Part shown: positions 14,386-64,000 of the stretch, in pieces
Position numbering within the stretch: the first letter of the stretch is position 1
How the letters are laid out: each line of letters begins with the position of its first letter
Assembly: GCF_022045235.1 (NCBI RefSeq)
Contig: NW_027266265.1
Location: forward strand, 29,450,001 to 29,514,000
Source: Haliotis cracherodii
Taxonomy: Eukaryota
Reading direction: 5' to 3'
Length of the DNA: 64,000 nucleotides
Position numbers and translations under genes: made by a program
The notes under the pieces: generated by a model
What the model saw: only the letters and a program-made list of their open reading frames with translations
The model's database searches: none
What the model was told of the DNA's origin: nothing

Positions 14386-14524
14386 NNNNNNNNNNNNNNN
14401 NNNNNNNNNNNNNNNNNNNNNNNNNNNNNNNNNNNNNNNNNNNNNNNNNNNNNNNNNNNNNNNNNNNNNNNNNNNNNNNNNNNNNNNNNNNNNNNNNNNN
14501 NNNNNNNNNNNNNNNNNNNNNNNN
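14386..14524. other. Assembly gap (N run)
   Basis: Run of n. Confidence 0.99.
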
Positions 14525-20807: not shown

Positions 20808-21100
20808 GGCAAGACATGTAAATCACTGACCTGTTTGGTTGAAACTTACAAGACATGTAAATCACTGAGCTGTTTGGTTGAAACTTACAAGACATGTAAA
20901 TCACTGAGTGGTTTGGTTGAAACTTACAAGACATGTAAATCACTGAACTGTTTGGTTGAAACTTACAAGACATGTACATCACTGACCTGTTTGGTTGAAA
21001 CTTACAAGACATGTACATCACTGACCTGTTTGGTTGAAACTTACAAGACATGTAAATCACTGAGCTGTTTGGTTGAAACTTACAAGACATGTCAGTCACT
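20808..21100. repeat. 39-bp tandem repeat, about 7.5 copies
   Basis: Unit tgtttggttgaaacttacaagacatgtaaatcactgagc, contiguous with no spacers. Confidence 0.92.
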
Positions 21101-21270
21101 GGGCACCTTTGCTTTTGGCATGTAGTTTTATGTAGTGTTACACTGATTTTCATTTCCTCATTTAAAAAGTATGGTTTCGAATGTGACTCAAGTTCAAATA
21201 AGAGAATGAACTTAAAGTACATACCAATGTATTTTAAGAATAGCATGAATAAACTAACCTTTTCGTACTA

Positions 21271-21448: not shown

Positions 21449-22057
21449 AATACGCAAGAACTTCCTAAAACCTTAGGAAATCATTATTGACAAGACGCAC
21501 ATATAACATTGTTACCAATGAAAGGTGTTATGTGAGTATGGTGAGTTATATATAGTGTTTATAAGTGAGTGAGTGAGTGAGTTAAACTATAACGTCGCAT
21601 CGGCATAATTCCAGCCACATAGCGACTGCTGAACCCCATTTCCATGATCACAGGAAATATCTGCTAAAAGCTGAGTCCATTGTACCTTTCCAACTATACA
21701 AGCACACGTGTTAATGAATCACTTTCATACGATTATACCAGGTGTTTGCGAAATGGTGATCATATCTTGCCCCAGCGGTGGCATCCGAAACAAACACATG
21801 CAAGGACATGTCAATTGTTCACCTGAAAAGTTTAACATATGGTACAAGTCCAAATGGAGAATTACGTGACAATCCGATCCCGTAAGTCGCCTCTTGCGAT
21901 GCATATCACTGTATCCCAATTGCGTAGATCGATGCTCACGATGTCAATCACTGGATTGTCTGGTCAAGACTCGATTATTTACAGACTGCCGTCATGTAGC
22001 TGGAATATTGCAGAAGGCGGCGTTAAACAACCAACAAAAAAATATATTCACTCTGGA

Positions 22058-37400: not shown

Positions 37401-39879
37401 TCATTATTATTATTCTTTAACATTGATATGCATAGCGATACTATTTTAGGCTTGAACTACAAGACCCAACCACTGGCACCGTCATTGAAACTCTACCTGT
37501 TATTGACAGTAAGTGAACGATTTCCTTTGCTCGAGTAACTAAATCTTCATTAATATCTGGAATATCCACGAACTATGAAACAAAGTAATGGCGACACATA
37601 ATCAAGAGATCTATTGAGATGAGAGCACAACAACTTTGATGCATAGCTCTGAATGCTCTGGGGGCCAAGTTAATATATTACTCTGGTATGATTGAAATAT
37701 GAAAACCACTTACAATATAAAGAAGGGTATCGGATGCTACTGATTAAATCCCTCTCTCGTCAGACGAAGACCGGGGGCGGGGGGTCACGGGTGGCCCAGT
37801 CGCCTAAGGCGCCGCGATTCGCTGTGCAGAGTTGCGTCCCTTGGGCACGCCAGAAACCTATGATTGTGGGTTCGAATCCCGGTTCGCCCCGATTATGTTT
37901 CTAGGTTTGTCAGCACTATACCCGTGCTCGTGGGTTTCACCGAAGTGGTAGACGTCTGAGACCTGCATCACTTGGGGCTTTCCTCCCACATTAAGCTGAC
38001 ATGCCGTAATATAACTGGAATAGTGTTAAAAGCGGCGTTAAACCCAACTCACTCACTCGCTCACTCACTCACGAAGACAAAGGTTGGATTCCCTATATGG
38101 TACATTTATAATGTCTACCGCAGTGAAATGGTAGGACTAGGGTTAAAATGGGCACAATATCTTATATTTATATCGATATGTCTTGCCACGTTTCCTAGCC
38201 ACAACCGTCGCAACAGGAGGTCCGTTCACAATCACTCTGTCCACGCCCATCAGCTCCACGGGTTGCCCTGGCGTTGCATGCATCTATGACGCTGCCATGG
38301 TCGACAACATTGACCTCACAAGCTGCGTCGTTGTCGGTGCTGGACATGACGATATTGCAGGTATATCATACAGGCTTTAGAAAGCATATGACAAAATTAG
38401 GAAGAAACTGTTAATTCCTATGTTCTTTCAATCTGCTTTGTGCTCCTCGGTAAACATTGATCGACGTTTATTTCAGCTGCTTTATTTTTCACGCAATGAA
38501 TATGATATTTAAAGTAGATGAATGTACGTGTGTTTAGAATTGCGGGTGTTATTTAGTATTTGATGCCCAGAAACTTTATTTAGACCCGACGGCGTTAGTC
38601 GGATGTTTCAAATGTTAAGATTTCGTCATTGTGTTGACTAGCACGCTTTTACAAATTGGGATGGAGAAAAATATTCATTCGCATGAAAATTCCGAAAGAC
38701 TTACTGGATCCGGTCTCGTTTAAGAAGTTTTTCAAGGTTGCAGCACACATTCAATCATTGTTAAGCATGTGTTATTTTTCAGGCACGAACCCCGCAACAT
38801 TATCCTTCTACACCGTGCCAAGTCTCCAGCCCACGGCCGATTGTCCCGCCCTCCTGCAGGCGTCTGGTCAAGCCGTCCTCTTTGACACTGGTCTTACGTA
38901 CAACTGTTTCTTCAATACAGGATCTTCTACCTGTGGTGTACGTATCTATAACACAACGCACTTTCTCACATTACCTAGGACCCAATGCATTAAGAAGGGG
39001 GTAGCCTTGTGGTTCTGACACTTGTGCCAAAGTTTTCTGGTAGACATGTTCTCGTGTGTTTTCAGATGTACGTGTTTGCAAACGAGTGCCGCTCACCTTT
39101 TCATGAACACGAGTGATCATCACTACTTGATAGTGATTCATAAATTCATGCTAATGATATAGTCTGAATCGTACAATGGACTGTACTTTCAGCAGAGATT
39201 TCAGGTCGCCTCTAAGGTCTAGGGGTAGAGCGTCTGCCCTGAGAGCGGCATACCCGGGGTTCGATCCCCGGTCTCGTCGTATCACAATACATCAAAAGAT
39301 GGTACTTGTTGTTACCCTGCCTGGTGCTCGGCATTAGGGGGCTGAAACAAGCCTTAGGACTGGTTGGCTTGGGGTCAGTATACTGTGTCTAAATGTGTAA
39401 TTGATGCGGCATGGTATCTCAGTGACCTAGCACTATAAAATCGACATTAGTCCGGACTAGTACAAGCAGCCACAGACGCACGTGCAAGCACGTCGCTATT
39501 TAAGTGCCATGACCTTGGACGCAACGTTAAACCCGATTTCACCTCTTATGATTATTTAAATGGATGTCGTCGCTTTTGTTTACTAACCTTACCTAATGTA
39601 TTATTTAAGGGTGATTCTGGAGCTCCTATCATGTGTCCCCTTACCACCGGAGAAATTGTCGTCATCGGTCAGGCTGAGAACATGCCCTGCGACGGCACCG
39701 ACATCGTTGGCTTCTACAATCTGGAGGCTGCGGCTGTCAGAGTGGGCCGTAGAGAGAAAGGGTCTATACTGTTGGGCTATCAGCCGTTCAGGAGATTTAA
39801 CAAACATAAGATTGTCCTTGGCACCGGCAGAAAAGCAACCCGAGTTATTCTTGGTAAACCCAAGATTACTCTTGGCTAG
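34462..39879 (+). CDS. SPH-3: close paralog of SPH-2 with Ser195 retained and His57 to Asn (485 aa)
   Basis: join(34462-34672,35161-35565,36037-36232,37450-37508,38199-38360,38783-38937,39610-39879) = 1458 nt, open. Exon sizes 211/405/196/59/162/155/270 match SPH-2 except the Thr exon. GDSGAPIMC. Confidence 0.9.
36660..37372 (-). mobile_element. 3' fragment of an RLE-type (R4/Dong-like) non-LTR retrotransposon in an SPH-3 intron
   Basis: ETVQHIISGCPAL knuckle remnant and KILWN..NKPDLV..IIDFSVP..KY, a PD-(D/E)xK restriction-like endonuclease; absent from the equivalent SPH-2 intron. Confidence 0.85.
37772..38070 (+). mobile_element. tRNA-derived SINE family D
   Basis: gtggcccagtcg..ggttcgaatcc head, gcggcgttaaa + (ACTC)n tail, TSD ACGAAGAC at 37764 and 38071. 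Confidence 0.85.
39203..39545 (+). mobile_element. SINE family C in the last SPH-3 intron
   Basis: Absent at the paralogous SPH-2 site. Further copies at 40395-40665 and 51560-51740(-). Confidence 0.8.
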
Positions 39880-42574: not shown

Positions 42575-43090
42575 GAGAATCTCACCCGAGTGTCTTTTGA
42601 TATCAAATATATCAATACGAGTTGATAAAAGTGGAAAAACTCTGGGGCTTGTCGAGGAGTTTTTCCGCTTTTATCAACGAGTGTTGATATATTTGATAAA
42701 AAAAGACACGAGGGTGAGAATATATTTATCATCTAACATCATTCTTCCCAATTTTTCAGTTTGTAGACAGTAATAAGCAGTGTCTTAAGTGTAAAAAGTA
42801 CTGCTAACAGCCTCAGTCATTTGATTGTGACGTCAGGGGCGGTCGGTTAGCCTAGTGGTTAAAGCGTTCGCTCGCCACGCCGAAGACCCGGGTTCGATTC
42901 CTGACATGGGTACAATGTGTGAAGCCCATTTCTGGTGTCCCCCGCCGTGATATTGCTGGAATATTGCTAAAAGCGACGTAAAACCATACTCACTCACTCA
43001 CTAACTGATTGTGACGTCATGCTAGCAATGACGTCACAGTGGTCAGCAAAGCATTGTGATGCAATTTCATGGGAGCGATATCTACAATGT
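42575..43090. mobile_element. Foldback/palindromic non-autonomous element (related copy at about 18770-19030)
   Basis: Inverted arms of about 63 bp at 42580-42719; the flank matches 18770-19030 in inverted orientation. Confidence 0.6.
42836..43005 (+). mobile_element. tRNA-derived SINE family B with 14-bp TSD
   Basis: TSD TGATTGTGACGTCA at 42822-42835 and 43006-43019. Other copies at about 17010-17165(-), 34975-35122, 40750-40870(-) and 50735-50833. Confidence 0.88.
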
Positions 43091-44490: not shown

Positions 44491-44689
44491 AGAGTGCGTG
44501 TAGTCAATTTGGAACGAAATTGTCTCCAGCTGCTAGGTGTATTTTGCATAATTGTTCTACGAGCTTATGCTTTTGATATCCTTAAGCGTTTTAAGTTATC
44601 TTCAGTCGGATGTTTATTGAATACACTTTCCGACATTATCCTGTTTTGTTTCTAGCTTTTTTTTTTCAATCATCATTATACCATGGTGT

Positions 44690-46215
44690 ACTAACATGTG
44701 GAGTTGTATAGGTATTAGAGATAACGTCCGTGGCAATGTTTAAGAAGGTCATGATCATTCATAAAATGATTAGCTTTCAATTTAGTACTGCAAAAGAAAC
44801 TAAACAAAAGCCTCACTACCTTGGAAAATTGCTTTTGTAAATGAAACTATCCACAAAGGGAGATATAGCTTTACATACGGTAGGAAAGTGATCAGTGCGG
44901 CACAAATCACCATGAACTGACCATGAACTGAAAAAAGGTCATTAAAGAGTGTCAGAAATGGGCAAATCCAACGCTGAGAACATACTCCTGGATTGAAGTA
45001 TGTGTTACTTCCATCATTAAGAAGGCATAGACTATGCTTATCAAGTAATTCTTCTGTCACATTTCCTATATCTTTATGATCGGATGAACCCAATACGATT
45101 TGTGACAATTCAAGTCTCCCATAATCAAAAACACTTTGGGATGCTGGTCAATGAGATCATCCAGATCCCTGAGTTGAAGAGCAGATGATGGATGTATATA
45201 TGAGGAACACAGAGTTATTGTTGTAATATACCAAGTTATACGCACTGCAACAGCCTGAAGGTATTTAGTGCAATAGGGCTTTGAGGAGATCCCTATTTCA
45301 ATGGTATATCTGTGCCAACATACGCCTTACTTTCAGTAACCCTTACAAACGAACTATATGTATCCTACTGATGTAAATTAAATAGCTGACCATCTCATGT
45401 TTCCTGGAGACTAAACGGTTCTTATCTTCGGCTAGAAGGTTCATTTCTTCAAAATTAGCTATAATTCCTCGGCAGTTACATTGTATGATATTATGATTCA
45501 TGGAGGGTGAACATGTGATCTACCTCTACCCACTTTCTTTTCAGAAGTGTGGCCATGTACATGTATGTAACTTTTGGTGGGTTTTAGGGCAGTGACATAA
45601 GATATTTTAGTTGGTCCTGCAGAGGAATTAGCAGGAACTTTCTTTCGTGCATCAATGTAGCCAATAGTTTGCTCAGACTTAACCCGTTACACAGCCGACT
45701 CAAATTCGAACACAGGACGCTCAGGGGAATATGCCATGTGTGCTTCTGTGCAGTGAGGACATTTGAGGGTAGCACAACAAGCAAAGCCTTCATTTCTATT
45801 TCAATGTTGAGCATGACCAAACTGTTGGCATTTGAAACAGTTTTCACATGGTTTTCACAAATCAATCCTCATAACTTCTTTGAGAGGCATTTAGAAAATG
45901 GAGTACTGAGTACTGAGTTGTTCATCCATAAATCATTTCCTTACTTTAGTCAATTCTCATAGCAAAGCAACCAACCTGGAAGGTTAGGTGAAGCAAACGT
46001 GATCAAGAGATAAGTGTTGGAAGGTAAAATGTTCCCATCTTCCTTAAACGTGAAACGTTTTGCTTCAATAACACCTTGATCTCTTAGCTCAGAAACAATT
46101 TCATCAACTGAGAGGTCATTTAAACTACGATCACGATCACGGACGATCCCCTTACTGAAGTTGAGTGATTTATGAGCATAACTTTCGATCTTGATATCTG
46201 CCGGTTTAGTTGATT
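44690..46215 (-). mobile_element. Decayed I-group LINE remnant (ORF1 end + APE endonuclease)
   Basis: MNHNIIQCNCRGI at about 45500, LQAVAV and LLNDGSNTY EN motifs, plus degenerate knuckles upstream; many stops. Confidence 0.75.
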
Positions 46216-47717
46216 CAATTCAATTCGGTTTATTTCGTAAGTGTAGGCCATCGGCCAATAGTTACATTTATATTACAATGGACGTGGTGTACACAGATCT
46301 TATTGTTCTGACAATAATGTACTACGAAGTGACATCGCTTGACAGATATAAAATATAGCAAAACGTTTAATTACTTTACAATCAGTTTTAGACATAGTGA
46401 TAACAATTTCTTTGTTTTGTCGGATATTCATAACATTTCTGTGGCAAGTGATCCACCCGTGTTATAACCGGAGCAAACTAACAAGACATGATACTCGTGT
46501 AGTTCATTCAAAAAGGGTTGCAGATTGTTTATGAGTTTTGCATTCCACCAGCAGGGCGCCACACTTCAGTTTTGTAACATCAGACATTCCCTGCTTTAAC
46601 TTTTATTGCTTTTTTTCTAGTAGAACCGCCTTCTGGGCATCGGAATCGAGAATCAGTTAAATTTTGAAATTTCTCAAAATTCCTCAAAATTCAAGAAAGA
46701 AAGAAAATGAAAAAAAAATCAAAAGAGTGAGTGAGTATGGTTTTACGACACATTCTACGCCGGATCCTAATCTAGATAAACACAGCAATTAAAGCATTAT
46801 GGCTCGTAAACTTCAACACAGATACCTTCAGAGCTGATATCGTCGGTTATAATTGTAGTGCGAAAAGACAGGTGTTTTAAGTCGCATTATTGAAATCAGC
46901 TATTTGCAAGACCGACACATTGTGTTATGGTCTATTTTATATTCAGAAAGAGAATAATTGCAAATGTCTCACGACTATTTATAGTTACATACATAAAACT
47001 GAGTCGCAAAAGCAATTTACCTTTCAATTGAGTTGATGTTTTATTTTCAATTGAAAATATGTTAAGTTAGCGATATTTCATCCCAAAGAAATAAACTGGC
47101 GCTTAGTCAGCACTCAAAGAATAATTGTACGTGTTTTTTTCAAAATATAATTTGATTTAAAACTTTTAAAAAACATTTTGAAACATTCCATTATACAAAA
47201 CTGCTGATGGGTATCTTAGACATCTTTGAAACTCAATAAATTTGCATTTCAAACATTGTAGAGGTCAAGTGAGTACAAATTCATTTCTTACACAAGTCTT
47301 CATTGAACCAAATTATTTTAACACAAAATTACCCATCCACAGATTACTTTTTACAGACGGTTACAGGAATCAGTGATGGTTAAATACACATAATCAAATT
47401 TAACAAAGGTTCTTTCAAATTTCAATTATTTAAAACAAACTCGGGATACTATCTTTTGCCCCAAAGTTTGTAAAATGTTTCGAACCTTGAAATGCATGAT
47501 TAAGCATCCCCACTTGTGCTGTAGGAAATTTTCCAGGTGTCGTAGCTTGTGTGGAAACGCTTCTGTAAAGCCCATCTTTGTATGGCAAACATTGGTATAT
47601 TCTATGATATGTACTTCTACTGCTGGTTCAACATCGAAAACAAACCCTGTAGTGTTTGAATCACTGTTTAAATAGAAAAAAATCCCACGGCAGTTCTTCC
47701 ACCGAAATCCATCTCAG

Positions 47718-47725
47718 TATAAATA
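47718..47725 (+). promoter_or_regulatory. TATA box of SPH-4
   Basis: TATAAATA 63 bp upstream of the ATG at 47781; identical at 63514-63521 before SPH-5. Confidence 0.6.
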
Positions 47726-47780
47726 CCCCGTCTCCCTCCTGTTTGAACGCCAGCGCCTTGACAGCTCCACACACAGCAGA

Positions 47781-50700
47781 ATGAATTGCCTACCCATACT
47801 AGTCTGCCTATCACTGGCAGTGATGGTGAGTAGCGAATATCTCTCCATGGAGTATCAGTCAGAGAATTATGAAAGTGCTATGAGGGCTGAAAGTCAAGCT
47901 TCACTGCGACACTACAGGCCCCGCTACAGCTACGTCGACTACTCGGGAGACTGCTGCCGTAACGGTAACAACAACTGTGGATGGGCTCGATATTGTAAGT
48001 AATCAGTGCAATTATACATATATTATTACATACAATTCACGAAGTTTGTATAACGAGGTAACTGCTAAAGCCATGCTGATTTTTTCACCCCAAACAGGCC
48101 CCAATGCCAATAGTTTCTTTTCGCGAACACTTGGTATTATCACTGTTTGATAGTGGTTAAAGAACACATGCTCATGGTACAGTCGCAATCGTATAATGGA
48201 CTCGTTCAAGAAGGTGTTTATTGCTGTTAATTACGAATTAGTTTAACTCAGTGGCAAGAACATTTTGTGGTGAATCAAAGCAACGGACTAGTAATTCTCC
48301 TAGTATCACTCTAGAACACTCAAGAGAGCGAAAGGTCTGTGGTTCGATTACCAAGATATGATACTTGTTGTCACTCCGCGTAATACAGAAATTTCAAATA
48401 TTAAATGACAGGAATCAAAAACGGAATAACACCTTCAAATGTGCAAAATTGAGCTTCATCGACACTGTAAATGAAAATGTCTGTCCGAAATAGATGTACT
48501 GTGAACTGTGACACATGCATATTGCCAAGCTCAAATGTTTTGACGTCGTAATACTTTGCATGACGGCATATCTGTCAATCACAACTGAATAGGCCTCGTT
48601 AGCGTAAGCAGAGAAGTAATCAAACACATAATTTATGTTTTTTCGCTAATAAATATTAATCAAGTGCAATATTGAATGAATGATCTATTCATGTCGCCAT
48701 CTCAAATGCCATTTTCCCAAGTGGTGATACGCAACGAAAAGACCCATAAAGATCTGGCGAAGAATAGGTCTTCAGCAACCCATACTTGCCGTAAAATGCG
48801 ACTATGCTTGTCGTAAGAGGCGACTAACGGGATAGGGTGGTCAGGCTCGCTGACTTGGTTGATGCATGTCATCGATCCCAAATGCGTGGATTGATGCTCA
48901 TGATATCAAACACTGGATTGTCTGGTCCAGACTCGATTAATTACAGACCGCCGTCATAAAGCTGGAATATTGCTGAGTGCGGCGTTACACAACAAACCAA
49001 CAAACCATAAAAAGGCGTAAAAGGCAAACAAGTGATGGAAAATGTGTGAAGGCATCACGGAAATTCTGTAATAATACCACGTGTTTGCGAAAACGGTTAG
49101 CACATGTTTTATGTCCTGTTCTACCAATAGCACCCTCTCAATATGGTGCCAGTGAGTTAGGTGGTTCAACACTCCATGACTGTGAAGGTCATTGCATGGG
49201 AGAGAACAGCGCATCATGTTGCCAAGCCAGGGGCAAATTACTTTAAATGTTAAGCTGTTCACCATACACGTTCTGAAATGACTTAACCAGGACTTTGATG
49301 GTGATTCTTTGATTGAGAAGCTTATTTGTAATCTTTCTTTCCGTGAAAAATAACCCGATTCAAACAGATTGCCTCACACAGTCTCATTCGTTTTACAGTT
49401 GTCAGTCCAGTCGAATCCCTCGACGCACAAAACACACATTTTGCCGACAAACCCGCGTGTGAATATCGCGCGTCTTGTTTGTTTCAGATGCTTCCTCCTA
49501 CTATGGATCCCGGTACTCCAGGAGAGGCTGCTACTATTATAGACCACAAAGCTCTGTAGTATACTGCGGATGTGTGGGAGTACAACAATGTTCTCCAACA
49601 ACTGTTGCCGCTACAACCACTACTACAACAGCTGTTCCCACGACTACAACAGCTGCTCCCACTACTACAACAGCTGCACCCACTACCACTACCACTCCTA
49701 CAACTACTACTGCAGCTCCAACAACAACAGCCACAACACGATGTTAGTTAACATAAACATTTTATTGTTCTTTATTTATGTACCACCAGAACAACCGTGG
49801 AGATTCATGGGTAGAATTGTTTCCAGTAACCCTAATGTGCTGCTTACGGACCATCGTTATGATATGGATCGATGTTCATGCTTTCAGTCACTGGTTTGTG
49901 CTGCTTATCAGTTCAACCACTCCTGTGCCTGAATATTTACAGACATGATATAGCTGGAATATTGCTGATGGCGGCGTCAAGAACATACTCGCTGACTATT
50001 ATGTGTACAATTTCAGTTTGTCCAGCTGAGGCCTCAACCGCCCCAACCGCCACCACGAGGCTACTAAACGGCCTTGCTATCGCTGGATGCGATGAGTTCC
50101 CAGGGCTTGTAGCCATCCAAATCGGTGGAGCAACTGTATGCACTGGAGTCGTCACCAGTGGCACGACCCTGTCTATACCCAGCAACTGTGCTGCTTTTGC
50201 AAACGGAGCAGAGTAAGCTGGCTTTATGATACTCATTACTATTAAGATATTATTATTAATAGGAGGTAGTGTTTTATTGGTGTAATTGTTGGTAATAATA
50301 TCCTGCTCAATAGTACCATTTAGCATTACGCAAATTGCCAGAAGGGGAATCACAGTGGCATCCTCCTGATCTGCGCCAACAGATAAGGAGGTACCGAACC
50401 TTAGGCACCAAGATCAGTGGGGAGTCGAATAACTTATACTTGTGATGCAGGCACGACATTTCACATGCTAGGTTCGTTTATTTGACAATTTATCAAAATG
50501 GACAATGTTGCATTGCAAATACTTGATTACCTATCGTTATTGTCGATCTTCCCAAAAGATCCTCTCAAGCTCTACAATTTCGTCCCTATAGTTATAGTTA
50601 AGGATCATGTATGTCACAGCACAAATATGTGCCAGGTGTTTTTACGTATATAAATCCAATAGTACAACATGTATCATTGAAATGCAAACACTACAGGCGT

Positions 50701-52685: not shown

Positions 52686-55570
52686 AAATATTGTTTTATT
52701 AATTTGTCTTGTGTTCCATGTTAAATAAACAGCTGAACATTTACAGTACCATGTTGTAATTCTAACTATGTGCATGTATATCCAATGGCATACTTTGTAT
52801 ACTTTGAGGATTCCTAGAGCAAAAGCTTTTGGCAATGAAACTGGAAATAATCAAATTGACAAAAGATGCTTTATTCGGTCAAAGTCATATCGTTAGGTGG
52901 TAGGATATTTATATAAGTTCAGTCTATTTTATAAACAACAGTAATTTCGTGTTAAATAGTCCTCAATCATGAAATAATACGTCCCTATGGACGTCCCTCG
53001 GTCTTAGCTGGTAGTTTAAACCGTTGGTGCCATATGCAGAAAGGAGATACCTTTGTGACGTATTTAGTTCACGTGTTTAGTTCATGTCTTCTTGCCTATG
53101 AGTATCGTTCGACGATTTCCTTTAATGTCGAACCCCTAAAATGACTCAAGTCAAACTTTCACCACTTTGGAAATACCCACGACTACCAAAGGTTATAATA
53201 GGGACGGAAGCTGGAAAGCAACACTGCACCGCTATTTAATCATATGAAGTTGATATATTCGTCAAGATACAAAACCCCAATTTTAGTTCTTATTTCGCGT
53301 TTTATTGTTGAAATGTACAAGAAAACACAATGTGACAACATATGACAAGACTCAAAAGTCATTCAGGATTATTACAATAATGTAGCGACTTTCATGTACG
53401 CGTTTGTGGCTGTTTGTTCCAGTCGGCCATATGTCGATTTTATAGTACCAGCCCAGTGAGATCTCATGCGGCGTCACGACGCACTTTCTTTCATCACCGC
53501 ATATTTTCGCTATTAGGTCTACATTGTCGTGTTGTCACATTCGCGCATGGTGGCACTGCTTATTTCACAATGCCAACCAAGACTGATCTATACCAATAGA
53601 TGAATAAGTCAAGGGTTTAAATTCAGTCACTTCATCGAAAAAAATAGATTGTCCCAAAACATGCTTGAAAAAATGTATTAATGCCTTAGACTGGAAAGAA
53701 AAGAAATTGTTCCAAGGTGGTTTTTACCAAAAACAACAGTTTAGGCTTACAGTTTTAATATATTTCTGGTTTTGCAGCAGTAATTGAAAAAGTATTTAGT
53801 CTCCAAACAAAACCCCATATAGGTTTCTGTCACGCTCACGGTACGCAACACTGCACTGTGCATTCATCAATTTTAGTGTGAGAGTAAGTGAGTTCAACAA
53901 TTAAATTACCACGGCACAGCTTGATGCAGAAGGAGAGCCCGAAGTGATGCAAATCTTAGATTTAAACACATTGGTAAAACCCACAAGCAGAGGAAAGGCG
54001 CTGGGGTGCCAACCTATGCCTAGTGGACACAGCTCTGCACAGCAAATACACCGTCCAGGATGACTGGCACAACCGTACCCGTCCTTCAACGATGTGATTA
54101 GTTATTGGCGACCTGAAATAAATTAAACAGAAAAAAGTTTATTTCTTGCTGTCAAAACACGTTGGTATTTAAAACCGACCCCGAAAAGAGAGATTTGGTT
54201 TCATTCCGAGGGAAGTAACCCACATTGCCATCGATACTTATGTTTTAGAATCATTGGAGACCACTGGAGTTTGTAAAGGAATATAACCATTTCTGTGCAT
54301 GCGTAGATATATTCACTTATTACACATGTACAATATTAATAGAAAAGGGACACAATGCGAATTTAATGAATACTTGCATATTCGCACATTTTAATGCATT
54401 GCTAAATATAACAGATGGGACATTTGGTCAAAATGTCGAGATGTCTCGCTTTTTATCACTTTTAGTTTGTGTTTGTGAGGGCACGAACACGGCAATGTCC
54501 CTACTAGGATTCAATATAATTCTACATTGACCTCGGTAGTGAAGATTGAGCTAATAATGGAGATTCTGAAATAAACAGTTTTGATTCCAATGACAGAGAG
54601 ACTTTGGCACTATTTGCCAGTACAAATAGATCCGTTAGAATCTTCTTTACCAGTGGGTGATACCATACTGATCAGTATCTGCACAATTCCTCTAACCATC
54701 CACCACAAATCAAAAGAGGAATTATCGCCACCTTAGCCCGACGTGCCGTCAACATCTGTTCCACGCCACAACACCTACAAACTGAACTCAACCACCTCCG
54801 CCATGTCTTCACTAACTTCAACAATTATCCTACCAGCCTAGTTGAACTAACAATCAACAGCATCCTCAGCCCCAGAGAGCGGCCTCCACGACAACACACA
54901 GCCCCGTTTGTCATCAGTCTTCCCTACATAGGAACAGCCAGCCACCAGATCCGCAGACTGCTCAAACACCACGCCAACATTGATACACTATTCCAGAGAG
55001 ACAGGACAATCCAGAACATCCTCAGTGCCAATGGCAAGCCCCCTACATCAAAGAAAGAAGACCCAGCTGGTGCCGTATATCACATACAATGTGACTGTGG
55101 CGACTCCTATGTAGGAGAAACATCCAGGCCCCTACCCATTCGAATAAAAGAACACAAGACCTCAGTACAAAAAAAATGACTCAAAATCAGCCATCTCCGA
55201 CCACACTCAAACCCACCCCGACCACAACATCCAGTGGAACAACATCAAGATCCTGGCCAACAATCAATCAGACTACAAAATCAGGAAACTCCTAGAAGCC
55301 ATCTACATCAAAAGGATCCAGCCAGCAATGAACAGAGATCAAGGCTATTACATCCCGCCTGCTTACCATCACCTAATTGCTAAATCCCTATGTCCATCCA
55401 ATTAATCCACTGGCTTCCATCATCTCTATCATTCTGCTTGCTGACTATGTGTTCATTAGTCATCAACTGGCTTCCAATTATCTTAATCAGCTCTCTGTGT
55501 CCATCAATCAATTAACTGTATAAACATTGATGTTAATAAGTATATATACCTATGTTGTTTAGCACGATCC

Positions 55571-55786
55571 GGCTCCTTTAGTTCCCTCCTCCACCCACCT
55601 CGGCATTTATTCCAAATTTAAAAATTTCAAAAAAACAATATAAGCAACCCCTAAAAGCCCCCTCTTGGGTTGCACACACCACTTTCACCCTTCTCGGAAT
55701 ACACTAAATGGTCCGGCCAGGCCCGTGTGCGAAATACGCTGTAGTCGGAAAGCGCACGTTAAATCTTCTATATCAGTCAGTCAGTC
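55571..55786 (+). mobile_element. Short 3'-end copy of a related I-group LINE with a (TCAG)n tail
   Basis: Homologous to the LINE 3'UTR at 59781-59980; perfect 10-bp TSD AGCACGATCC at 55561-55570 and 55787-55796. Confidence 0.85.
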
Positions 55787-55796
55787 AGCACGATCC

Positions 55797-58700
55797 CAAA
55801 ACCAACACCCAAAACCTAAATAACCTCATGCATAGTCAAAACTCACCAAAAGCTAGCATGAAATCCTTCTACAAAGTAGCTTTCAATCTAAAATTAACCG
55901 ATCTTCCCTTCTTCCTCTTTAACCTCCATCTAAAAGAACTCACCGAATAAAATAAAAACTAAAAACTAAATCACCAATCACCCGAACCCAATATTCGAAG
56001 GACTAAATATTTTTCAGTGGAACGCCAACGGACTCACCTCCCACGGCCATGAACTAAAAACTAAATTTAAACTAAATAAAGGCCCTCACATTGCTTGTAT
56101 ACAGGAAACCAAATTCTCAAAAAAATCCAAATTCACACTACCTAACTACAACTCAGTTAGAACTGACAGAGCTAAACCGAAAACAAGAAGAGCCGCAGGA
56201 GGACTAATCATATTTATCAGGGAAGATATAAATTACGAAGAATAAAAATAGACACGCCAAACCTAGAAGCCAACGGCATTAAAATCACATTAAATAACCG
56301 AAACATAAACATCATCAATATTTACCACTGGGCGGAACAAAAAGTCCAACCTGAGGATCTAAACAAACTACTCCAAATAAGCGATAAATCTACTATATTC
56401 CTAGGAGACTTTAACGCTCACCATCCTACATGGAGCATAGATGATAAAATAGATAATCATGGCAAATTAATCTCCGAATGGATAGAAACAAACGACCTAG
56501 TACTCCTTAATAGCAACCAACCCACGAGGTACGATAAGATAAACCAAAAAATGTCGGCTATCGATCTAACCATATGCACCGCAGATCTAGCCCAAAGTAC
56601 TCAATGGGAAGTGCACGACGTCCCGCTAGGTAGTGACCACTTCCCCATAAACATAACCATAGGAAATACAAACGTACCAATCCAAACAGAAAACCAAGAA
56701 CCAAAATTGCATTACAATAAAGCTAACTGGGACCAATTCCAAGATATCTGCAACGAAGCTAACTTAAACGAAATAGAAAATAAGGATCCAGAAACCTATT
56801 GTAAAAACCTAACAGACTATATAATAAACGCAGCCAAAACCTCCATCCCCTTCAAAACATCTAAGACAGGCAAACCTACGGTACCATGGTGGAATGAGGA
56901 AATAGAACAGACTAGACGAAAACGTAAATCAGCCTTCAATAAAGCAAAACGCGACTACAAATATTTAAACATAGCCCACGAACTAAACCACCAGGTTCAA
57001 AAACTAGTCCAAATAGCCAAAAGTAGAGACTGGAAAAAATTCTGCGAAGGTATAAATAACCGTACAGATGCCAGAATGGTCTGGCGCAAAATCCACGCCA
57101 TCAGAGGCTTAAAACGACAGAAAAAAAACCCTAACATTGACAACTCAACCAACCCCGCCCAAAAGCAAATAATCTCGCCAACCACTTTTCGGCCGTTAGC
57201 AGTAACACCAACTTCAGTAAAAAATTCCAAGATAAACTTAAAACAGAAAACAAACCCACAAAAGAACCAAACAATAACAATCTAGAAATAAATCAACCCT
57301 ACACAATGGAGGAGCTCCTCTACGTAATCCAAAACGGGCACAGCCCCAATTTTAGACCTAACTTCTTACCAAATAGTTAAAAAACTCCCCCTAAAACTAC
57401 TCAAACTATACAATCTCATCTACCTAAACGGACAGGTTCCTACTCCCTGGAAACAGGCCCTAGTCATACCAATCCCTAAACCTAATAAACCAGCTAATCA
57501 AGCTAACTCATATAGACCAATATCCCTAACTTCAAACTTATGTAAAGTAATGGAATCAATGGCTAAAAATAGATTACAACATTACTTAACCCAAAATAAC
57601 ATCATAAACCCAGATCAAAGCGGTTTCACTCCTGGCCGCTCAACCCTAGATAACCTCGCCCGACTAGAACAAGATATTAAGACAGGACAGCTAAATAAAC
57701 AATATACCACAGGCATCTTCTTAGACTTCTCTAAAGCTTTCGACATGGTATGGCACGATGGGCTAATACAAAAACTTAAAAAAATAGGACTCAAAGGTCA
57801 GATAATAAACTACATCCAGGACTTCCTAAACAATCGTAAAATAACCGTGGGTATAGACCAAACTCTATCGGACCAATGTCCCCTAGAAAATGGCACTCCA
57901 CAGGGCAGTATCCTCAGCCCCACCCTCTTCAATATAATGATAAACGATCTATTCGAGGGCCTATCCCCTAAAGTAAACACATCAAAATTCGCGGATGATG
58001 GAGCCATCTGGATCCGCACTAAAAGCATGAACATGGTCCAAAATTTACTCCAAAAATCTCTTAATAAAATACAACATTGGGCTGACAAATGGGGCTTCTC
58101 CCTTAACTCAGAAAAAACAACAGGAATAGTATTCAAACATAAAAACATGAAACCCGCCTCCCCAATCCTCCAGCTAAACAATCAAACAATCAAATTTCAA
58201 AAACAAACCAAATTCTTAGGACTTATTTTCGATGAACATCTCACCGGGGATGCTCACATCCAAAACCTAACAACTAAATGCAGTAAAGACCTAAACACCC
58301 TAAGATGCCTAACTGGCTCTAACTGGGGAGCATCCAAAGATACCATACCCTCCTCTCTCTCTACATATCACTAATTAGATCAAAACTAGACTACGGCTGC
58401 GCCATATACAACACCCTAAACAACTCTCTATCTAAAAAACTTGACTCAATACAATATCAGGCTCTCAAACTAATTACACGCACCCAACATGGCACCTCCT
58501 ACACCTCACTTCAGGCCTTAACAGGAGATATGCCACTAAGTCTACGCAGGGAACAGCTAAGCTTAAATTTCTGGGCCGCGTCCCAATCAAACCCTCTCAT
58601 CCAAAACATCAGCCCTAAAAACCAAGCTCTAGCTCGTAAACACCCCTTACTTATCCCAATATCCCAAAGAATAACAAACTACCTAAATGAACACCAAATT

Positions 58701-59978
58701 AAAAATCTTAAACAAAACTGCAAACAATCAAATATCTTCACCCCTAAACTTAAAATACCCAAAATAGACACAACACTAGCTAGCCAAATAAATAAACAAA
58801 CCGACCCAAACATAGCTAAAACTACCATACTAGCATACATACACGAAAATTGGCCAAATTGGTGTCACATTTACACGGACGGATCCTCAGATCCGACCTC
58901 CAAACACACGGGTTTCGGAGTTCATACCACACAACCAACTAAAACCACACAATCCTTCCGACTCCCAAATAACCAATCAATATTCACGGCAGAACTAATG
59001 GGCATGGCCTCAGCCCTCCATAATCAAGAATCCAAAAACCACAAAAAAATCCTAATACTTACCGGCTCCCTAAGTGGACTGCAAGCCCTCCAAAACAAAA
59101 ATACCAAAAACCGACCTAAATTAATAAATCAAATACTTAAAAACTCCAACGACCTAACTAAGGCAGGCAAACAAATAACCTTCTTGTGGATCCCCGCCCA
59201 CGTAGGAATATACGGTAATGAAAACGCCGATAAAGCAGCTAAACTATCCCTCAAAATCCCAGAAATAAGCTTAAACTTACCCATCTCAAAATCAGAAATT
59301 AAAAGTGTAAACAAGCAAAAAATCACCAAAAAATGGCATAACCTATATCTAAACTCAAATAGCCAAATCAAAAAAGTGCTCAGCAAACCACTAACCAAAC
59401 CAAAAATTCTCCATCCATCAAAAAAAAATCGACAGAGTAATCACTAAACTCCAAACAGGACACACCAACCTAAATAACCACCTAAAATATTTTTTAAAAA
59501 CACACTACAGGTAACTGCCCACATTGCAAACAACTAGAAACCCCAGAACACGCACTCATCCACTGCACACACTACCGCACACATCGAACCGCATTACAAA
59601 CCACCCTCAATCTAAACAAGGCTCTCACTCTAGAAGCAATACTAAACCCACAAAATAAACTAGAAAACTTCAAGGCCTTAGGCGTATTCTTAATCAAAAC
59701 GGAACTAATAAAACGCATCTAAAAACATAATAACCTACCAAATCAAAATCACATAAACAAACAAACATCCACCATACCCAGCTCCCTTAGTTCTCCTCCC
59801 CAACCCCATCGGCATCTATTCCAAATCTCAAAATTCCCAAATTATATATGAGCAACCCCTAAAGCCCCCTCTTAGGGTTGCACAGACCACCTTCGCCCCT
59901 TTCGGAAACACATTAAATGGCCTGGCAGGGCCCGTGTGCGAAATACGCATCAGTCGGAAAGCGCACGTTAAATCTCCA

Positions 59979-60019
<41 letters not shown>
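55797..60019 (+). mobile_element. 5'-truncated I-group (Nimb/I-like) non-LTR retrotransposon: APE endonuclease, RT, RNase H and CCHC; frameshifted
   Basis: EN: IFQWNANGL, GDFNAHH, SAIDLT, GSDHFP. RT: DQSGF, FLDFSKAFD, GTPQGSILSPTLFN, FADD. RNase H: IYTDGS..AEL..WIPAHVGIYGNENAD. Zinc knuckle CPHC..ETPEH..C. (GTAA)n tail at 59981-60020. Flanked by AGCACGATCC and AGCACTATCC. Confidence 0.92.
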
Positions 60020-60021
<2 letters not shown>

Positions 60022-60035
60022 CACTATCCATCACT

Positions 60036-60075
60036 TGCTTGATAAAGGTGTTAGGATCTCCATCGAAACGTCGCA
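60036..60075 (+). ncRNA. Minimal type I hammerhead ribozyme variant of the Penelope-like element
   Basis: tgc-TTGATAA-a-ggtg[loop]catc-GAAA-cg-TC-gca. Core CUGANGA appears as UUGAUAA (compensatory U3-A8), with stem II, GAAA, GUC cleavage triplet and a short stem I. Position is typical of PLE pseudo-LTRs. Confidence 0.6.
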
Positions 60076-60164
60076 CCAATTGTAATAAAGAAGTTGTTCA
60101 TCCATAGAACTCGTCTTACTTTATCACACCAACTTCTAATTGCCACTGAAAGAAGTCATGGTGT

Positions 60165-61675
60165 ACTAACACGTGGAGTTGTCTAGGTATTAGATATAGC
60201 TTCAGTGACAATGTTTAAGAAGGTCATGATCATTCATAAAACGATTAGCTTTCAAATTAGTACTGCAAAAGAAACTAAACGACAGCCTCATGATCACTGC
60301 CTTGGAAAATTGCTTTTGTAAATGAAACTATCCACAAAGGGAGATATAGCTTTAGATACGGTAGGAAAGAGATCAGTGCGACACAAATCACCATGAACTG
60401 ACCATGAACTGAAAAAAGGTCATTAAAGAGTGTCAGAAATGGGCAAATCCAACGCTGAGAACATACTCCTGGATTGAAGTATGTGTTACTTCCATCATTA
60501 AGAAGGCATAGACTATGCTTATCAAGTAATTCTTCTGTCACATTTCCTATATTTTTATGATCGGATGAACCCAATAGGATTTGTGACCATTCAAGTCTCC
60601 CATAATCAAAAACGGTTTGGGATGCTGGTCAATGAGATTATCCATATCCCTGAGCAGATGATGGATGTATATATAAGGAACACAGAGTTATTGTTGTAAT
60701 ATACAATGTTATACGCACTGCAACAGCCTGAAGGTATTTAGTGCAATAGGGCTTTGAGGAGATCCCTGTTTTACTGGTATATTTGTGCCACCATACGTCT
60801 TACCATAAGAAACACTTACAAACGAACTATATGTATCCTACTGATGTAAATCAAATAGCTGACCATCTCGTGTTTCCTGGAGACTAAACGCCACGACCTT
60901 CTTATCTTCGGCTAGAAGGTTCATTTCTTCAAAATTAGCTTTAATTCCTCGGCAGTTACATTGTATGATATTATGATTCATGGAGGGTGAACATGTGATC
61001 TACCTCTACCCACTTTCTTTTCAGAAGTGTGGCCATGTATATAACTTTTGGTGGGTTTTAGGGCAGTGACATAAGATATTTTAGTTGGTCCTGCAGAGGA
61101 ATTAGCAGGAACTTTCTTTCGTGCATCAATGTAGCCAATAGTTTGCTCAGACTTAACCCGTTACACAGCCGACTCAAATTCGAACACAGGACGCTCAGGG
61201 GAATATGCCATGTGTGCTTCTGTGCAGTGAGAACATTTGAGGGTAGCGAAGCCTTCAATTTTGAGCATGGCCAAACAGTTGGCATTTGAAGCAGTGGCTA
61301 GGACATGATTTTCACAAATCAATCCTCATAACTTCTTTGAGAGGCATTTAGAAAATGGAGTACTGAGTACTGAGTTGTTCATCCATAAATCATTTCCTTA
61401 CTTTAGTCAATCCTCATAGCAAAGCAACCTACCTGGAAGGTTAGGTGAAGCAAACGTGATCAAGAGATAAGTTTTGGAAGGTAAAATGTTCCCATCTTCC
61501 TTAAACGTGAAACGTTTTGCTTCAATAACACCTTGATCTCTTAGCTCAGAAACAATTTCATCAACTGAGAGGTCATTTCAACTACGATCACGATCACGGA
61601 TGATCCCCTTATTGAAGTTGAGTGATTTATGAGCATAACTTTCGATCTTGATATCTGCCAGTTTAGTTGATTCAA
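60165..61675 (-). mobile_element. Duplicate of the decayed I-group LINE remnant
   Basis: Near-identical to 44690-46215 within the duplicated block. Confidence 0.75.
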
Positions 61676-63513
61676 TTCAATTCGGTTTATTTCGTAAGTG
61701 TAGGCCATCGGCCCATAGTTACATTTGTATTACAATGGACGTGGTGTACACATATCTTATTGTTCTGACAATAATGTACTACGAAATGCCATCGCTTGAC
61801 AGATATAACATATAGCAAAACGTTTAATTACTTTACAATCAGTTTATGACATAATGATAATAATTTCTTTGATTTGTCGCCTATTCACAATATTCTTGTG
61901 GTAAGTGCTCCACCCGTGTTATAATCGGAGCAAACTAACAAAACAGGATACTCGTGTAGTTCATTCAAAAAGGGTAGCAGACTGTTTATGAGTTTTGCGC
62001 TCCACCAGCAGGGCGCCACACTTCAGTTTTGTAACATCAGACATTCCCTGCTTTAACTTTTATTGCTTCTTTCTAGTAGAAAGGGTAAACATGATGTTAA
62101 TTTGTGTTCTTCAGTGGCCTCAAGCACAATGGACTTGAGCCAAGTGTCTTTCTCGGAATATCACAAGCGAGCAAGTGTTTCATCATCGGAAAAGTTCACT
62201 TTCTGAATCAGTACTTTTTAAGATTTGTTTAAGGTGCCATGGTAATAAGAATATGTTTCAACAATCATGTTTACCGACCCCACGGAGCGCCTTTACTGGG
62301 GATGTTAAATGTCAGTGGATCTCCAGCAGACTAACACCAAGAGGATACAGGATAGATATATTCCAACAGTGTAATGTACTAGATTCGCCCATGAGCAACC
62401 GCCTTCTGGGCATCAGACTCGAGGCTATGTTAAATTTTGAAATTTCTCAAAATTTCTCAAAATTCAAGAAAAGAAAGAAAATGAAAAAAAAAATCAAAAC
62501 CACCTGAGTGAGTGAGTATGGTTTTATGACACATTCTACCCCGGATCCCAACATAGATAAACACAGCAATTAAAGCAATATGTCTCGTAAACTTCAACAC
62601 AGATACGTTAACGTTCAGAGCTGGTATCGTCGGTTATAATTGTAGTGTGAAAAGATAGGTGTTTTAAGTCGCATCATTGAAATCAGCTAATTGCAAGACC
62701 GACACATGGTGTTATGGTCCTTTTTATATTCAAAAAGAGAATAATTGCAAATGTCTCACGACTATTTATAGTCACAAAACTGAGGCGCGAAAGCAATAAT
62801 ACCTCTCAGTTGAGTTTATAATATGTTTAATTTTCAATTGAAAATATGTTAAGTTAGCGATATTTCATCTAAAAGAAATAAACTGGCGCTTAGTCAGCAC
62901 TCAAAGAATAATTGTTTTTTTCAAAATATAATTTGATTTAAAACTCTTAAATAACATATTGAAACATTCCATAACACAAAACTGCTGATGGGTATCTTAG
63001 ACATCTTTAAAACTCAATACATTTGCATTCTTTGGGCACAAATTTACATTTCAAACATTGTAGAGGTCAAGTGAGTACAAATTCATTTCTTACACAAGTC
63101 TTCATTGAACCAAATTATTTTAACACAAAATTACCGATCTACAGATTACTTTTTACAGACGGTTACAGGAATAAGTGATGGTTAAATACACATAATCAAA
63201 TTTAACAAAAGTTCTTTCAAATTTCAATTATATAAATAAATACTATTTTTGCCCCAAAGTTTGTTAAATGTTTCGAACCTTGAAATGCATGATTAAGCAT
63301 CCCCACTTGTGCTGTAGGAAATATTCTAGGCGTCGTATCTAGAGTGGAAACACACCTGTAAAGTCCATCTCTGTATGACAAACATTGGAATATTCTATGA
63401 TATCTACTTCGACAACAGCTGGTTCAACATCGAAAACAAACCCTGTAGTATTTGAACCACTGTTTAATTAGAACAAAATCCCACGGCAGTTCTTCCACCG
63501 AAATCCATCTCAG

Positions 63514-63521
63514 TATAAATA
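63514..63521 (+). promoter_or_regulatory. TATA box of SPH-5
   Basis: TATAAATA, copy of 47718-47725. Confidence 0.55.
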
Positions 63522-63576
63522 CCCCGTCTCCCTCCTGTTTGAACGCCAGAGCCTTGACAGCTCCACACACAGCAGA

Positions 63577-63790
63577 ATGAATTGCCTACCCATACTAGTC
63601 TGCCTATCACTGGCAGTGATGGTGAGTTGCGAATATCTCTCCATGAAGTACCAGACAGAGAATTATGAAAGTGCTGTAAAGGCTGAAAGTCAAGCTTCAC
63701 TGAGACACTTCAGGCCCCGCTACAGCTACGTCGACTACTCGGGAGACTGCTGCAGTAACAGTAACAACAACTGTGGATGGGCTCGATATT
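63577..63790 (+). CDS. SPH-5 exon 1 (recent duplicate of SPH-4; remainder beyond the window)
   Basis: 214-nt exon, same length and phase-1 donor (T|gtaagt) as SPH-4 exon 1: MNCLPILVCLSLAVMVSCEYLSMKYQTENYESAVKAESQASLRHFRPRYSYVDYSGDCCSNSNNNCGWARY. Confidence 0.85.
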
Positions 63791-64000
63791 GTAAGTAATC
63801 AGTGCAATTATTCATATATTATTACATACAATTCACGAATCTTGTATAACAAAGTAACGGCTAAAGCCAACTGATTATTCACCCCAAACAGACGCTCATG
63901 CCAGATCAATAGTTTCTTTTCGCGAACACTTGGTATTATCACTGTTTAATAAAAAGAGCACGGAATTCAAATTTACCTGTAGATTGTCTTCTCAAAGCCT

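What the first reader, a model, noticed from the sequence alone, without database searches (positions are those of the whole stretch)
55561..60029. Two LINE insertions at the identical 10-bp site inside a Penelope-like element: candidate TE-targeting retrotransposon
Seen: AGCACGATCC (55561), a 216-bp LINE 3' end with (TCAG)n tail, AGCACGATCC (55787), a 4.2-kb LINE with (GTAA)n tail, then AGCACTATCC (60020). The two inserts have diverged 3'UTRs and different tails, so they are separate events sharing one TSD. The site lies between a TATA-like run (55541) and the hammerhead of the host element. Established: some APE-type LINEs are sequence-specific and a few target other TEs, but I-group elements are generally not known as strictly site-specific. 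Inference: a family that homes to Penelope pseudo-LTRs.
Basis: partly seen in the sequence, partly recalled or inferred. Interest (0 to 1): 0.72.

Follow-up and report, generated by a model that had tools for sequence, protein, structure and literature searches.

The report
LINE insertion hotspot in Penelope promoter
In abalone DNA, two related jumping genes landed one after the other at exactly the same base inside the likely promoter of a different jumping gene (Penelope); this looks like a real favourite landing site, but most copies of the family seem to sit elsewhere.

Summary
The anatomy is real. A 5'-truncated Penelope element (GIY-YIG remnant, minimal hammerhead) in abalone-like DNA carries, at one 10-bp target, a 216-bp LINE 3' end and a broken 4,223-bp APE-RT-RNase H LINE (I group, probably Nimb), with three target copies. 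The two 3' ends are 81% alike and have different tails, so two successive insertions are the best reading. One contig from another sequencing run joins the same Penelope flank and full 10-mer to a third, different truncation point, which supports a recurrent hotspot. Strict homing is not supported: the only other copy whose flank I could read lies in unrelated DNA, and LINE 3' ends are 3-7 times deeper in read data than this Penelope end. The site lies between a TATATATA box and a TCACT initiator-like motif, 53 nt before the hammerhead cut site. The closest known cases are Tx1-Mar/SINEU in Mariner-N4 and ingi/RIME in RHS genes. I found no report of an I-group LINE using a Penelope end repeat. 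No genome was held, so the genome-wide flank count could not be run.

The parts
54664..55405 (+). 5'-truncated Penelope-like ORF remnant (end of RT/thumb, then GIY-YIG endonuclease), with a frame change near 55170
   Evidence: GIY-YIG PF01541 E=0.0013; 95% identical to a Haliotis cracherodii protein, and 9 hits in all; tblastn matches start at 54664 and end at 55378-55381; stop at 55405
55406..55560 (+). Left part of the Penelope 3' UTR / pseudo-LTR
   Evidence: Multi-copy depth rising towards the 3' end; contigs in X1 and X12 cover 55413-55559 and then run into other DNA
55541..55548 (+). TATATATA, putative TATA box of the pseudo-LTR
   Evidence: Sequence; the same motif upstream of TCACT is described in Adineta vaga Penelope pLTRs (PMC3846280 passage); function not tested
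55561..55570 (+). Target copy 1 (AGCACGATCC)
   Evidence: an X1 contig joins 55570 to LINE position 58690
55571..55786 (+). 216-bp 3' end of a sister LINE subfamily, (TCAG)4 tail from 55773
   Evidence: 81% identical to 59778-59997; alignment
55787..55796 (+). Target copy 2 (AGCACGATCC), first 2 bases shared with the TCAG tail
55797..60019 (+). 5'-truncated I-group LINE: about 200 bp before ORF2 (possibly the end of ORF1), ORF2 (about 55994-59722: APE endonuclease, RT, RNase H, CCHC knuckle; several frame changes), 3' UTR and (GTAA)10 tail from 59981
   Evidence: Pfam PF14529, PF00078, PF00075; 78-83% identical to intact 1,252-aa P0129 in five pieces; depth rises 4-6-fold from 5' to 3' end
60020..60029 (+). 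Target copy 3 (AGCACTATCC, one mismatch), first 2 bases shared with the GTAA tail
60031..60035 (+). TCACT, initiator-like motif; 23 nt after the TATATATA once the inserts are discounted
   Evidence: 20 nt spacing is reported for A. vaga
60036..60075 (+). Minimal hammerhead ribozyme motif (U3-A8 core variant, one unpaired base before helix II, no helix III loop), predicted cut after 60072
   Evidence: Descriptor scan: 1 hit in the window, 0 in 30 shuffles; variant described in PMC4209133; missed by Rfam; helix I is only 3 bp and the MFE fold is not the hammerhead
60030..60156 (+). Right part of the Penelope pseudo-LTR up to the element's 3' end
   Evidence: The host duplicate 44682-46625 matches from 60157 on; an X1 contig spans 60131-60283

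Best explanation
An abundant abalone I-group LINE lineage (APE-RT-RNase H, probably Nimb clade) has a relaxed target preference, and one base in the pseudo-LTR of this Penelope family is a strong hotspot. Steps: (1, inferred) the LINE endonuclease nicks the bottom strand at the left edge of the 10-mer, a T/A step; (2, sequence shows) the AG at the end of the TCAG or GTAA tail matches the first 2 target bases and can prime reverse transcription; (3, shown three times) the top-strand break falls at the same place, giving an 8-10 bp duplication; (4, inferred) the left junction keeps the upstream Penelope flank plus a full 10-mer, so it is a regenerated target. The GTAA element probably came first and the TCAG fragment later entered its left target copy, which explains why the two left copies are identical and the right one differs. 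Most copies of the lineage lie elsewhere. The insertion splits a TATA-like box from an initiator-like motif and the hammerhead, so it probably silences this Penelope end as a promoter (inferred).
For: Three target copies at exactly the three junctions. Different tails and 81% identical 3' ends. A third, different truncation point behind the same flank and full 10-mer in a contig of run X1, depth 86.7, in the range of the low-copy contigs of that run (tables 5c and 8). Random expectation for one insertion at that base and strand is 1e-5 to 6e-4 under assumed copy numbers and an assumed 1.5-Gb genome. Not strict: L001 has an unrelated flank; pLTR/LINE depth ratio is 0.13-0.32 downstream and 0.02-0.08 upstream of the site. 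The same architecture is explained by sequential insertion for SINEU/Tx1-Mar (PMC4494074 sections 14-15) and for ingi-clade elements (PMC3820030 passages).
Against: The evidence outside the window is thin: 1 supporting contig joint among 12 rows shown of 110 in table 5c, and 1 opposing flank. That contig carries 13 extra letters at the joint and could be a deletion allele of this locus or an assembly chimera; the length of its Penelope side was not shown. The tool dropped 18 joints and 48 loose ends at the GTAA tail (59973-60032), so no empty site and no tally of 3' flanks was seen. Depth ratios rest on short aligned reads (57-58 nt) and on contig depth, which is not a copy number, and they ignore Penelope families under 88% alike. 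L001's flank shares no motif with the 10-mer beyond AG, so no consensus target is demonstrated.
Confidence: 0.6

Rival explanations
1. One sub-lineage (most plausibly the TCAG-tailed one) is a true Penelope-targeting specialist, while the GTAA-tailed subfamily is mostly dispersed.
For: Depth on the TCAG fragment is 0.5-1.7 times the depth on the downstream pLTR, so the numbers allow most TCAG copies to sit there. The top-strand break is the same in three insertions. The counter-example L001 is GTAA-type only. Unchecked notes of this scan describe Tx1 elements with near-exclusive targeting of Penelope tails in a vertebrate genome.
Against: The upstream flank of the site is only 0.02-0.08 as deep as the LINE 3' end. 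Depth on the fragment includes cross-mapped reads. No second TCAG copy with a readable flank was obtained. A GTAA element uses the same site, so the preference is not confined to TCAG.
Confidence: 0.17
2. No real preference for Penelope. One chance insertion, a second one drawn in by a locally favourable nick site, and further copies of the junction spread by Penelope hitchhiking, gene conversion or deletion.
For: L001 has an unrelated flank. Most LINE copies cannot be in this pLTR. Penelope pLTRs can carry cargo in trans (PMC3846280 passages). The locus was picked because it looked unusual.
Against: Hitchhiking copies one 5' junction; it does not create a new truncation point directly behind the full 10-mer. 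A deletion would have to end on the last target base by chance.
Confidence: 0.1
3. The break is made by Penelope's own GIY-YIG endonuclease, or by open chromatin and breaks at its core promoter, and LINE particles only use it.
For: A purified Poseidon-type protein nicks AT-rich DNA in its own pLTR region (PMC11167929 passages). The site is 12 nt after a TATA-like run.
Against: A constant 8-10 bp duplication and tail-target AG match fit ordinary LINE target-primed insertion. Other repeats in the window with similar tails (17 motif hits) are not followed by the 10-mer, though the window holds only this one intact site.
Confidence: 0.08
4. A single event with a template jump between two LINE RNAs, or a misassembly of two alleles.
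For: The inner junctions were not seen among the contig pieces shown. The window copy has several single-base frame changes that most reads do not share, which may include assembly errors.
Against: A template jump leaves no target copy between the inserts, but a full 10-mer is there. Merging two alleles would still need two insertions at the same base.
Confidence: 0.05

Closest known systems
Tx1-Mar and SINEU in Mariner-N4_AMi of crocodilians (PMC4494074, sections 14-15 read)
   Same: An APE-type LINE system that prefers one site in another transposable element; tandem copies sandwich a TSD and are read as sequential insertions; the preference is graded (90%, 23% and 13% for three SINEU families).
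   Different: Tx1 clade (L1 group), not an RNase H-bearing I-group element; the target is a Mariner DNA transposon, not a Penelope pseudo-LTR; the preference was counted genome-wide there and could not be here.
ingi/RIME and L1Tc/NARTc (Ingi clade, I group) and the RHS hot spot of trypanosomes (PMC3820030, PMC7563717, passages read)
   Same: I-group elements with relative site-specificity, a constant TSD length, tandem insertions separated by one TSD, and a hot spot in a multicopy sequence.
   Different: TSD is 12 bp there and 8-10 bp here; the hot spot is a host gene family, not a retroelement promoter; protist rather than animal; an upstream consensus was defined there and is unknown here.
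Nimb clade LINEs of fish, molluscs and insects (PMC4758252 passage; PMC4640811 passage for RNase H)
   Same: APE-RT-RNase H-CCHC ORF2; best relatives are Haliotis and other unnamed proteins, then teleost proteins at 42-43% RT identity; short tandem-repeat tail.
   Different: I found no report of target preference for Nimb in the searches run; clade membership could not be tested against labelled references.
R1 clade (R1, TRAS, SART) and Tx1 clade strict site-specific elements (PMC4640811 passage)
   Same: APE endonuclease and a repeat target; the only solved-structure match of the endonuclease piece is TRAS1 (E=0.0009).
   Different: Those families put most copies in the target; here 1 of 1 other readable flank is off target and depth caps on-target copies at a minority.
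Penelope/Poseidon-type elements with minimal hammerheads (PMC4209133 part 1 of 4 read; PMC3846280 passages)
   Same: Host element: C-terminal GIY-YIG, U3-A8 minimal hammerhead, TATATATA then TCACT in the pseudo-LTR.
   Different: This copy is 5'-truncated and interrupted; the host itself is ordinary.

Membership tests
I group non-LTR retrotransposon | APE endonuclease followed by RT in ORF2 | tested here: met
   PF14529 E=2.3e-20 and PF00078 E=7.4e-48
I group non-LTR retrotransposon | RNase H domain downstream of RT | tested here: met
   PF00075 E=1.9e-17; RNase H listed for I-group clades, plant L1, Proto1 and Dualen (PMC4640811 passage)
I group non-LTR retrotransposon | C-terminal CCHC zinc knuckle (feature recalled) | tested here: met
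   C1175, C1178, H1186, C1191 nearly invariant in alignment A1; present in P0129, which matches the window over 59498-59719
I group non-LTR retrotransposon | 5' truncation, repeat tail and TSD as in target-primed insertion | tested here: met
   depth gradient towards the 3' end
Nimb clade | RT groups with reference Nimb elements | not testable with these tools
   No labelled references held. In a 177-row RT tree the element sits in an 11-member group with two Haliotis proteins (support 0.84) and in a 122-member group with six teleost proteins (0.975). That fits Nimb's reported range but is not a test.
Tx1 clade | L1-group ORF2 without RNase H (Tx1 is absent from the RNase H list in PMC4640811) | tested here: not met
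   RNase H is present
R1 clade | RT groups with R1/TRAS/SART | tested here: inconclusive
   Only a weak endonuclease match to TRAS1 (E=0.0009); none of the named hits among the 120 listed is an R1-type protein; no reference tree
Strictly sequence-specific LINE | Most copies are flanked by the same target | tested here: not met
   1 of 1 other readable 3' flank is off target; pLTR depth is 0.13-0.32 of LINE 3' depth in 4 runs. Small sample, indirect measure.
TE-preferring LINE (Tx1-Mar-like behaviour) | Independent insertions with different 5' truncations at the same base of another TE | tested here: met
   Truncation points 55571 and 55797 in the window and 58690 in an X1 contig; only one is independent of the window
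TE-preferring LINE (Tx1-Mar-like behaviour) | Genome-wide enrichment of target flanks | not testable with these tools
   No genome held; rows at the tail were dropped by the read tool
Penelope-like element (host) | GIY-YIG endonuclease at the ORF end | tested here: met
   PF01541 E=0.0013, just under the curated cut-off; full-length relative P0137 has RT plus GIY-YIG
Penelope-like element (host) | Minimal hammerhead in the pseudo-LTR | tested here: met
   Descriptor hit at 60039, 0 in 30 shuffles; cleavage activity not tested
Penelope-like element (host) | Partial-tandem or inverted pseudo-LTR arrangement | tested here: inconclusive
   Single truncated copy; only a short inverted match to the 3' end at 54642-54656

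The most novel reading that the evidence does not exclude
A sub-lineage of this RNase H-bearing, non-R1 I-group LINE has evolved real specificity for the core promoter of Penelope elements. Inserting 22 nt behind the TATA-like box would put a full-length LINE's 5' end where Penelope transcription starts, and the hammerhead 53 nt past the tail could trim the read-through RNA. The LINE would borrow both promoter and 3'-end processing from Penelope while knocking out that Penelope end. If the scan's unchecked notes on Tx1 elements in a vertebrate genome hold, Penelope ends would have been chosen as a target twice, by two unrelated LINE groups.
Probability: 0.15. Interest if true: 0.75.

Novelty: new variant of a known kind. 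Interest (0 to 1): 0.47.

Why it matters
Most reported target-specific non-LTR families belong to early-branching, Tx1 and R1 lineages (PMC4640811 passage). A hotspot for a Nimb-like element would give a natural intermediate between random and strict targeting in a clade where I found none described. Two sister subfamilies that are 81% alike at the 3' end may differ in how strongly they prefer the site, so one genome could show target specificity being gained or lost. It also shows one retroelement family disrupting the likely promoter of another. If the preference is only mild, the finding is a tidy new example of a known behaviour.

Tried and rejected
No whole genome was held for the window, so copies could not be counted. 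The 24-nt LINE 3' pattern gave 0 hits in viral contigs and 1 in metagenome contigs; a 21-nt version gave 0 in prokaryote genomes. Penelope end patterns gave 0 in both collections tried. The record behind L001 is not held as a searchable genome. Protein-based locus searches gave 80 host-derived contigs in MAGs and 1 viral contig, all distant (37% or less over the long best segments). Only L025 held a Penelope GIY-YIG piece, 3 kb upstream of its LINE on the other strand. Of the 8 3' regions printed, none showed a Penelope end or passed the hammerhead descriptor, so there is no sign that distant relatives share the target. A CTGACGA...GAAAC core after the LINE in L004 failed the descriptor and Rfam and was rejected. 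A resemblance between L001's flank and the Penelope end was rejected (492 of 500 shuffles scored as well). The 3' stem-loop of both LINE ends is no more stable than shuffles (z 0.1-0.2). The window's duplicate region does not give the Penelope-free allele, because its upstream part does not match 53500-54663. The short Penelope remnant at 12438-12505 lacks the target and hammerhead. Endonuclease loop length against TRAS1 was not diagnostic. No structure prediction was run: the domains are clear from sequence. Earlier-finding look-ups by place and by sequence were empty, as was one by words.
Full report
OBSERVATION. The described structure is in the sequence. The 10-mer occurs at 55561, 55787 and, with one mismatch, 60020, and nowhere else on either strand of the window. 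The chance of an exact match at a given place is 5.8e-7. The first insert is 216 bp with a (TCAG)4 tail; the second is 4,223 bp with a (GTAA)10 tail. Their 3' ends are 81% identical over 223 nt. Both tails end in AG, which is also the start of the 10-mer, so the duplication is 8-10 bp.

THE LONG INSERT. Its ORF2 has an APE endonuclease, a reverse transcriptase and an RNase H, plus a CCHC knuckle that is conserved among relatives. It matches an intact 1,252-aa relative, P0129, at 78-83% in five pieces in changing frames, so this copy is broken, or partly mis-called: most reads differ from the window at several of these places. About 200 bp precede ORF2, with no Pfam match, so most of ORF1 and the 5' UTR are missing. 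The 120 best RT hits listed (of 1,438) are mostly unnamed; the named ones include Haliotis asinina, Haliotis rubra and teleost proteins. In a 177-row RT tree it groups with two Haliotis proteins, inside a larger group that holds six teleost proteins. RNase H places it in the I group rather than Tx1 (PMC4640811 passage). The fish-plus-mollusc range fits Nimb (PMC4758252 passage), but no labelled reference was available, so Nimb is a lead.

THE HOST. Left of the site is a 5'-truncated Penelope ORF from 54664 with a GIY-YIG domain, 95% identical to a Haliotis cracherodii protein. The window is therefore abalone or a close relative (inference). Right of the site is a minimal hammerhead with the U3-A8 core, found once in the window and never in 30 shuffles. 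This variant is described for Penelope elements (PMC4209133, part 1 of 4 read). Rfam misses it. The element ends at 60156, where a host duplicate of 44682-48152 begins. With the inserts discounted, TATATATA (55541) lies 23 nt before TCACT (60031), at -33/-31 from the A of that motif. The same two motifs, 20 nt apart, are described as a putative basal promoter in rotifer Penelope pLTRs (PMC3846280 passage). Against generalising, the Drosophila virilis Penelope promoter is described as internal and TATA-less (PMC2377424 passages). The LINEs sit between the two motifs; the hammerhead cut site is 53 nt past the GTAA tail.

IS THE SITE TARGETED? No genome was held, so I used indirect tests. For: when four public runs were laid on 54300-60400, one contig of run X1 joined position 55570, the last base of the left target copy, to LINE position 58690 with 13 letters between, at depth 86.7 (table 5c; 12 rows shown of 110). 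The 13 letters resemble the LINE bases at the joint, as is common at LINE 5' junctions (recalled). This is a third truncation point behind the same flank and the same full 10-mer. Random expectation is 1e-5 to 6e-4 insertions at that base and strand, using assumed numbers of 500-3,000 LINE copies, 60-600 sites and 1.5 Gb. Against strict homing: the single metagenome hit for the LINE 3' end (L001, 98% identical over 87 nt, GTAA tail) continues into unrelated DNA; its best alignment to the Penelope end was matched by 492 of 500 shuffles. The LINE is high-copy: raw-read depth at 59604-59807 is 154 (X16) and 641 (X17) against under 0.5 in the outermost flank bins, while the Penelope end at 60140 has 50 and 110, and four positions upstream of the site have 3-13 and 20-37. 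Across the four runs the downstream Penelope end is 0.13-0.32 as deep as the LINE 3' ends and the upstream flank 0.02-0.08. So most LINE copies cannot sit in this Penelope family. Limits: reads aligned over only 57-58 nt on average and showed a strong C>T/G>A excess; contig depth is not a copy number; Penelope families under 88% alike are not counted; and the tool dropped 18 joints and 48 loose ends at the GTAA tail, which is where empty sites and other 3' flanks would have shown. Depth on the TCAG fragment is 0.5-1.7 times that on the downstream Penelope end, so strong targeting by that subfamily alone is not excluded.

MECHANISM. Shown by sequence: three target copies at three junctions, a 2-base tail-target match, and the same top-strand break point in three insertions. 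Inferred: ordinary target-primed reverse transcription from a bottom-strand nick at a T/A step at the left edge of the 10-mer; each insertion leaves the upstream flank plus a full 10-mer at its left junction, which can be cut again. The GTAA element first and the TCAG fragment second is the simpler order, because it keeps the upstream flank for both events and explains why the two left copies are identical. A single template jump would not leave the middle target copy. A break made by Penelope's own endonuclease is a minor rival (PMC11167929 passages). Hitchhiking with Penelope cannot by itself create a new truncation point behind the full 10-mer.

COMPARISON. It works like Tx1-Mar/SINEU, which prefer a site in Mariner-N4_AMi with 13-90% of copies on target and form tandems that sandwich a TSD (PMC4494074 sections 14-15). 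It also works like ingi/RIME, I-group elements with relative site-specificity, a fixed 12-bp TSD, TSD-separated tandems and the RHS hot spot (PMC3820030 and PMC7563717 passages). It is a member of neither clade on present evidence: it has RNase H (not Tx1), and Ingi or Nimb membership was not testable. Distant relatives in bivalve and other host contigs (33-37% identity) show no Penelope flank. Four unchecked notes of this scan describe Tx1 elements at one base of Penelope tails in at least one vertebrate genome. I could not test them; they suggest convergence, and they also mean that Penelope ends as a target are not unique to this case.

LITERATURE COVERAGE. Nine searches of the held library showed no paper on an I-group or Nimb LINE that prefers Penelope elements; the phrase 'inserted into Penelope' occurred 0 times in the 20 papers listed. 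I also read passages of PMC11203168 and of the preprint 10.64898/2026.07.22.740005, without a relevant statement. No supplementary files were opened, Repbase reports and most subscription journals are not held, and such a target note could be there.

VERDICT. Observation confirmed; interpretation partly supported. Best reading (0.6): a recurrent hotspot of a relaxed-specificity I-group LINE in the putative core promoter of a Penelope family. Strict targeting by one sub-lineage remains possible (about 0.15). Novelty: new variant of a known kind. Interest 0.47.

Noticed in passing
window 44682-48152 and 60157-63951: Host segmental duplicate (93% and 89% identical blocks) that starts exactly at the Penelope 3' end. 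Both copies include a short Cys-containing, possibly secreted peptide frame (47676-48002, 63472-63798). The upstream flanks of the two copies do not match.
   Followed up: partly
window 10034-10567, 25455-25847, 35135-35611, 49463-49747: Thr-rich trinucleotide-type repeats in what look like tandem paralogous genes (mucin-like; label recalled).
   Followed up: no
window 12438-12505 (- strand): Old 3' remnant of the same or a related Penelope end (78% over 68 nt), without target or hammerhead.
   Followed up: yes
window 54642-54656: Short inverted match (7 + 6 bases) to the Penelope 3' end, just left of the element's 5' truncation; may be a remnant of an inverted terminal piece or chance.
   Followed up: partly
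window 889-1122, 8699-8761, 21820-22044, 25122-25376, 38003-38065, 42944-43006, 48761-49012 and others: Several SINE-like families ending in a stem, then GCGTTAAA and (CAAC)n, (CACT)n or (CACCT)n tails, the same type of 3' end as the LINE; 17 motif hits.
   Followed up: partly
L002 4107-4727: A relative from a bivalve-derived contig has an exact 190-nt tandem repeat of its ORF end/3' UTR and further 3'-end fragments in a row; either tandem insertions or an assembly artefact.
   Followed up: partly
L002-L081: Eighty contigs in prokaryote genome assemblies (mostly MAGs) encode relatives of this RT; the best ones look like animal LINEs, i.e. host contamination.
   Followed up: no
L025 (about 2810-3106, - strand) and L062: L025 holds a Penelope GIY-YIG piece followed by a minimal hammerhead; L062 holds a hammerhead motif with a longer helix I.
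   Followed up: no
runs X16 and X17 on window 54300-60400: 97% of laid reads run on into unlike sequence, aligned length is about 57 nt, and C>T and G>A differences dominate; the contig runs do not show this bias. Short or damaged library fragments are likely, which weakens depth ratios.
   Followed up: partly
window 30298-31313, 20771-21140, 2653-3237; N runs 14386-14524, 15653-15812: 27-nt, 39-nt and 29-nt minisatellites, and two assembly gaps.
   Followed up: no
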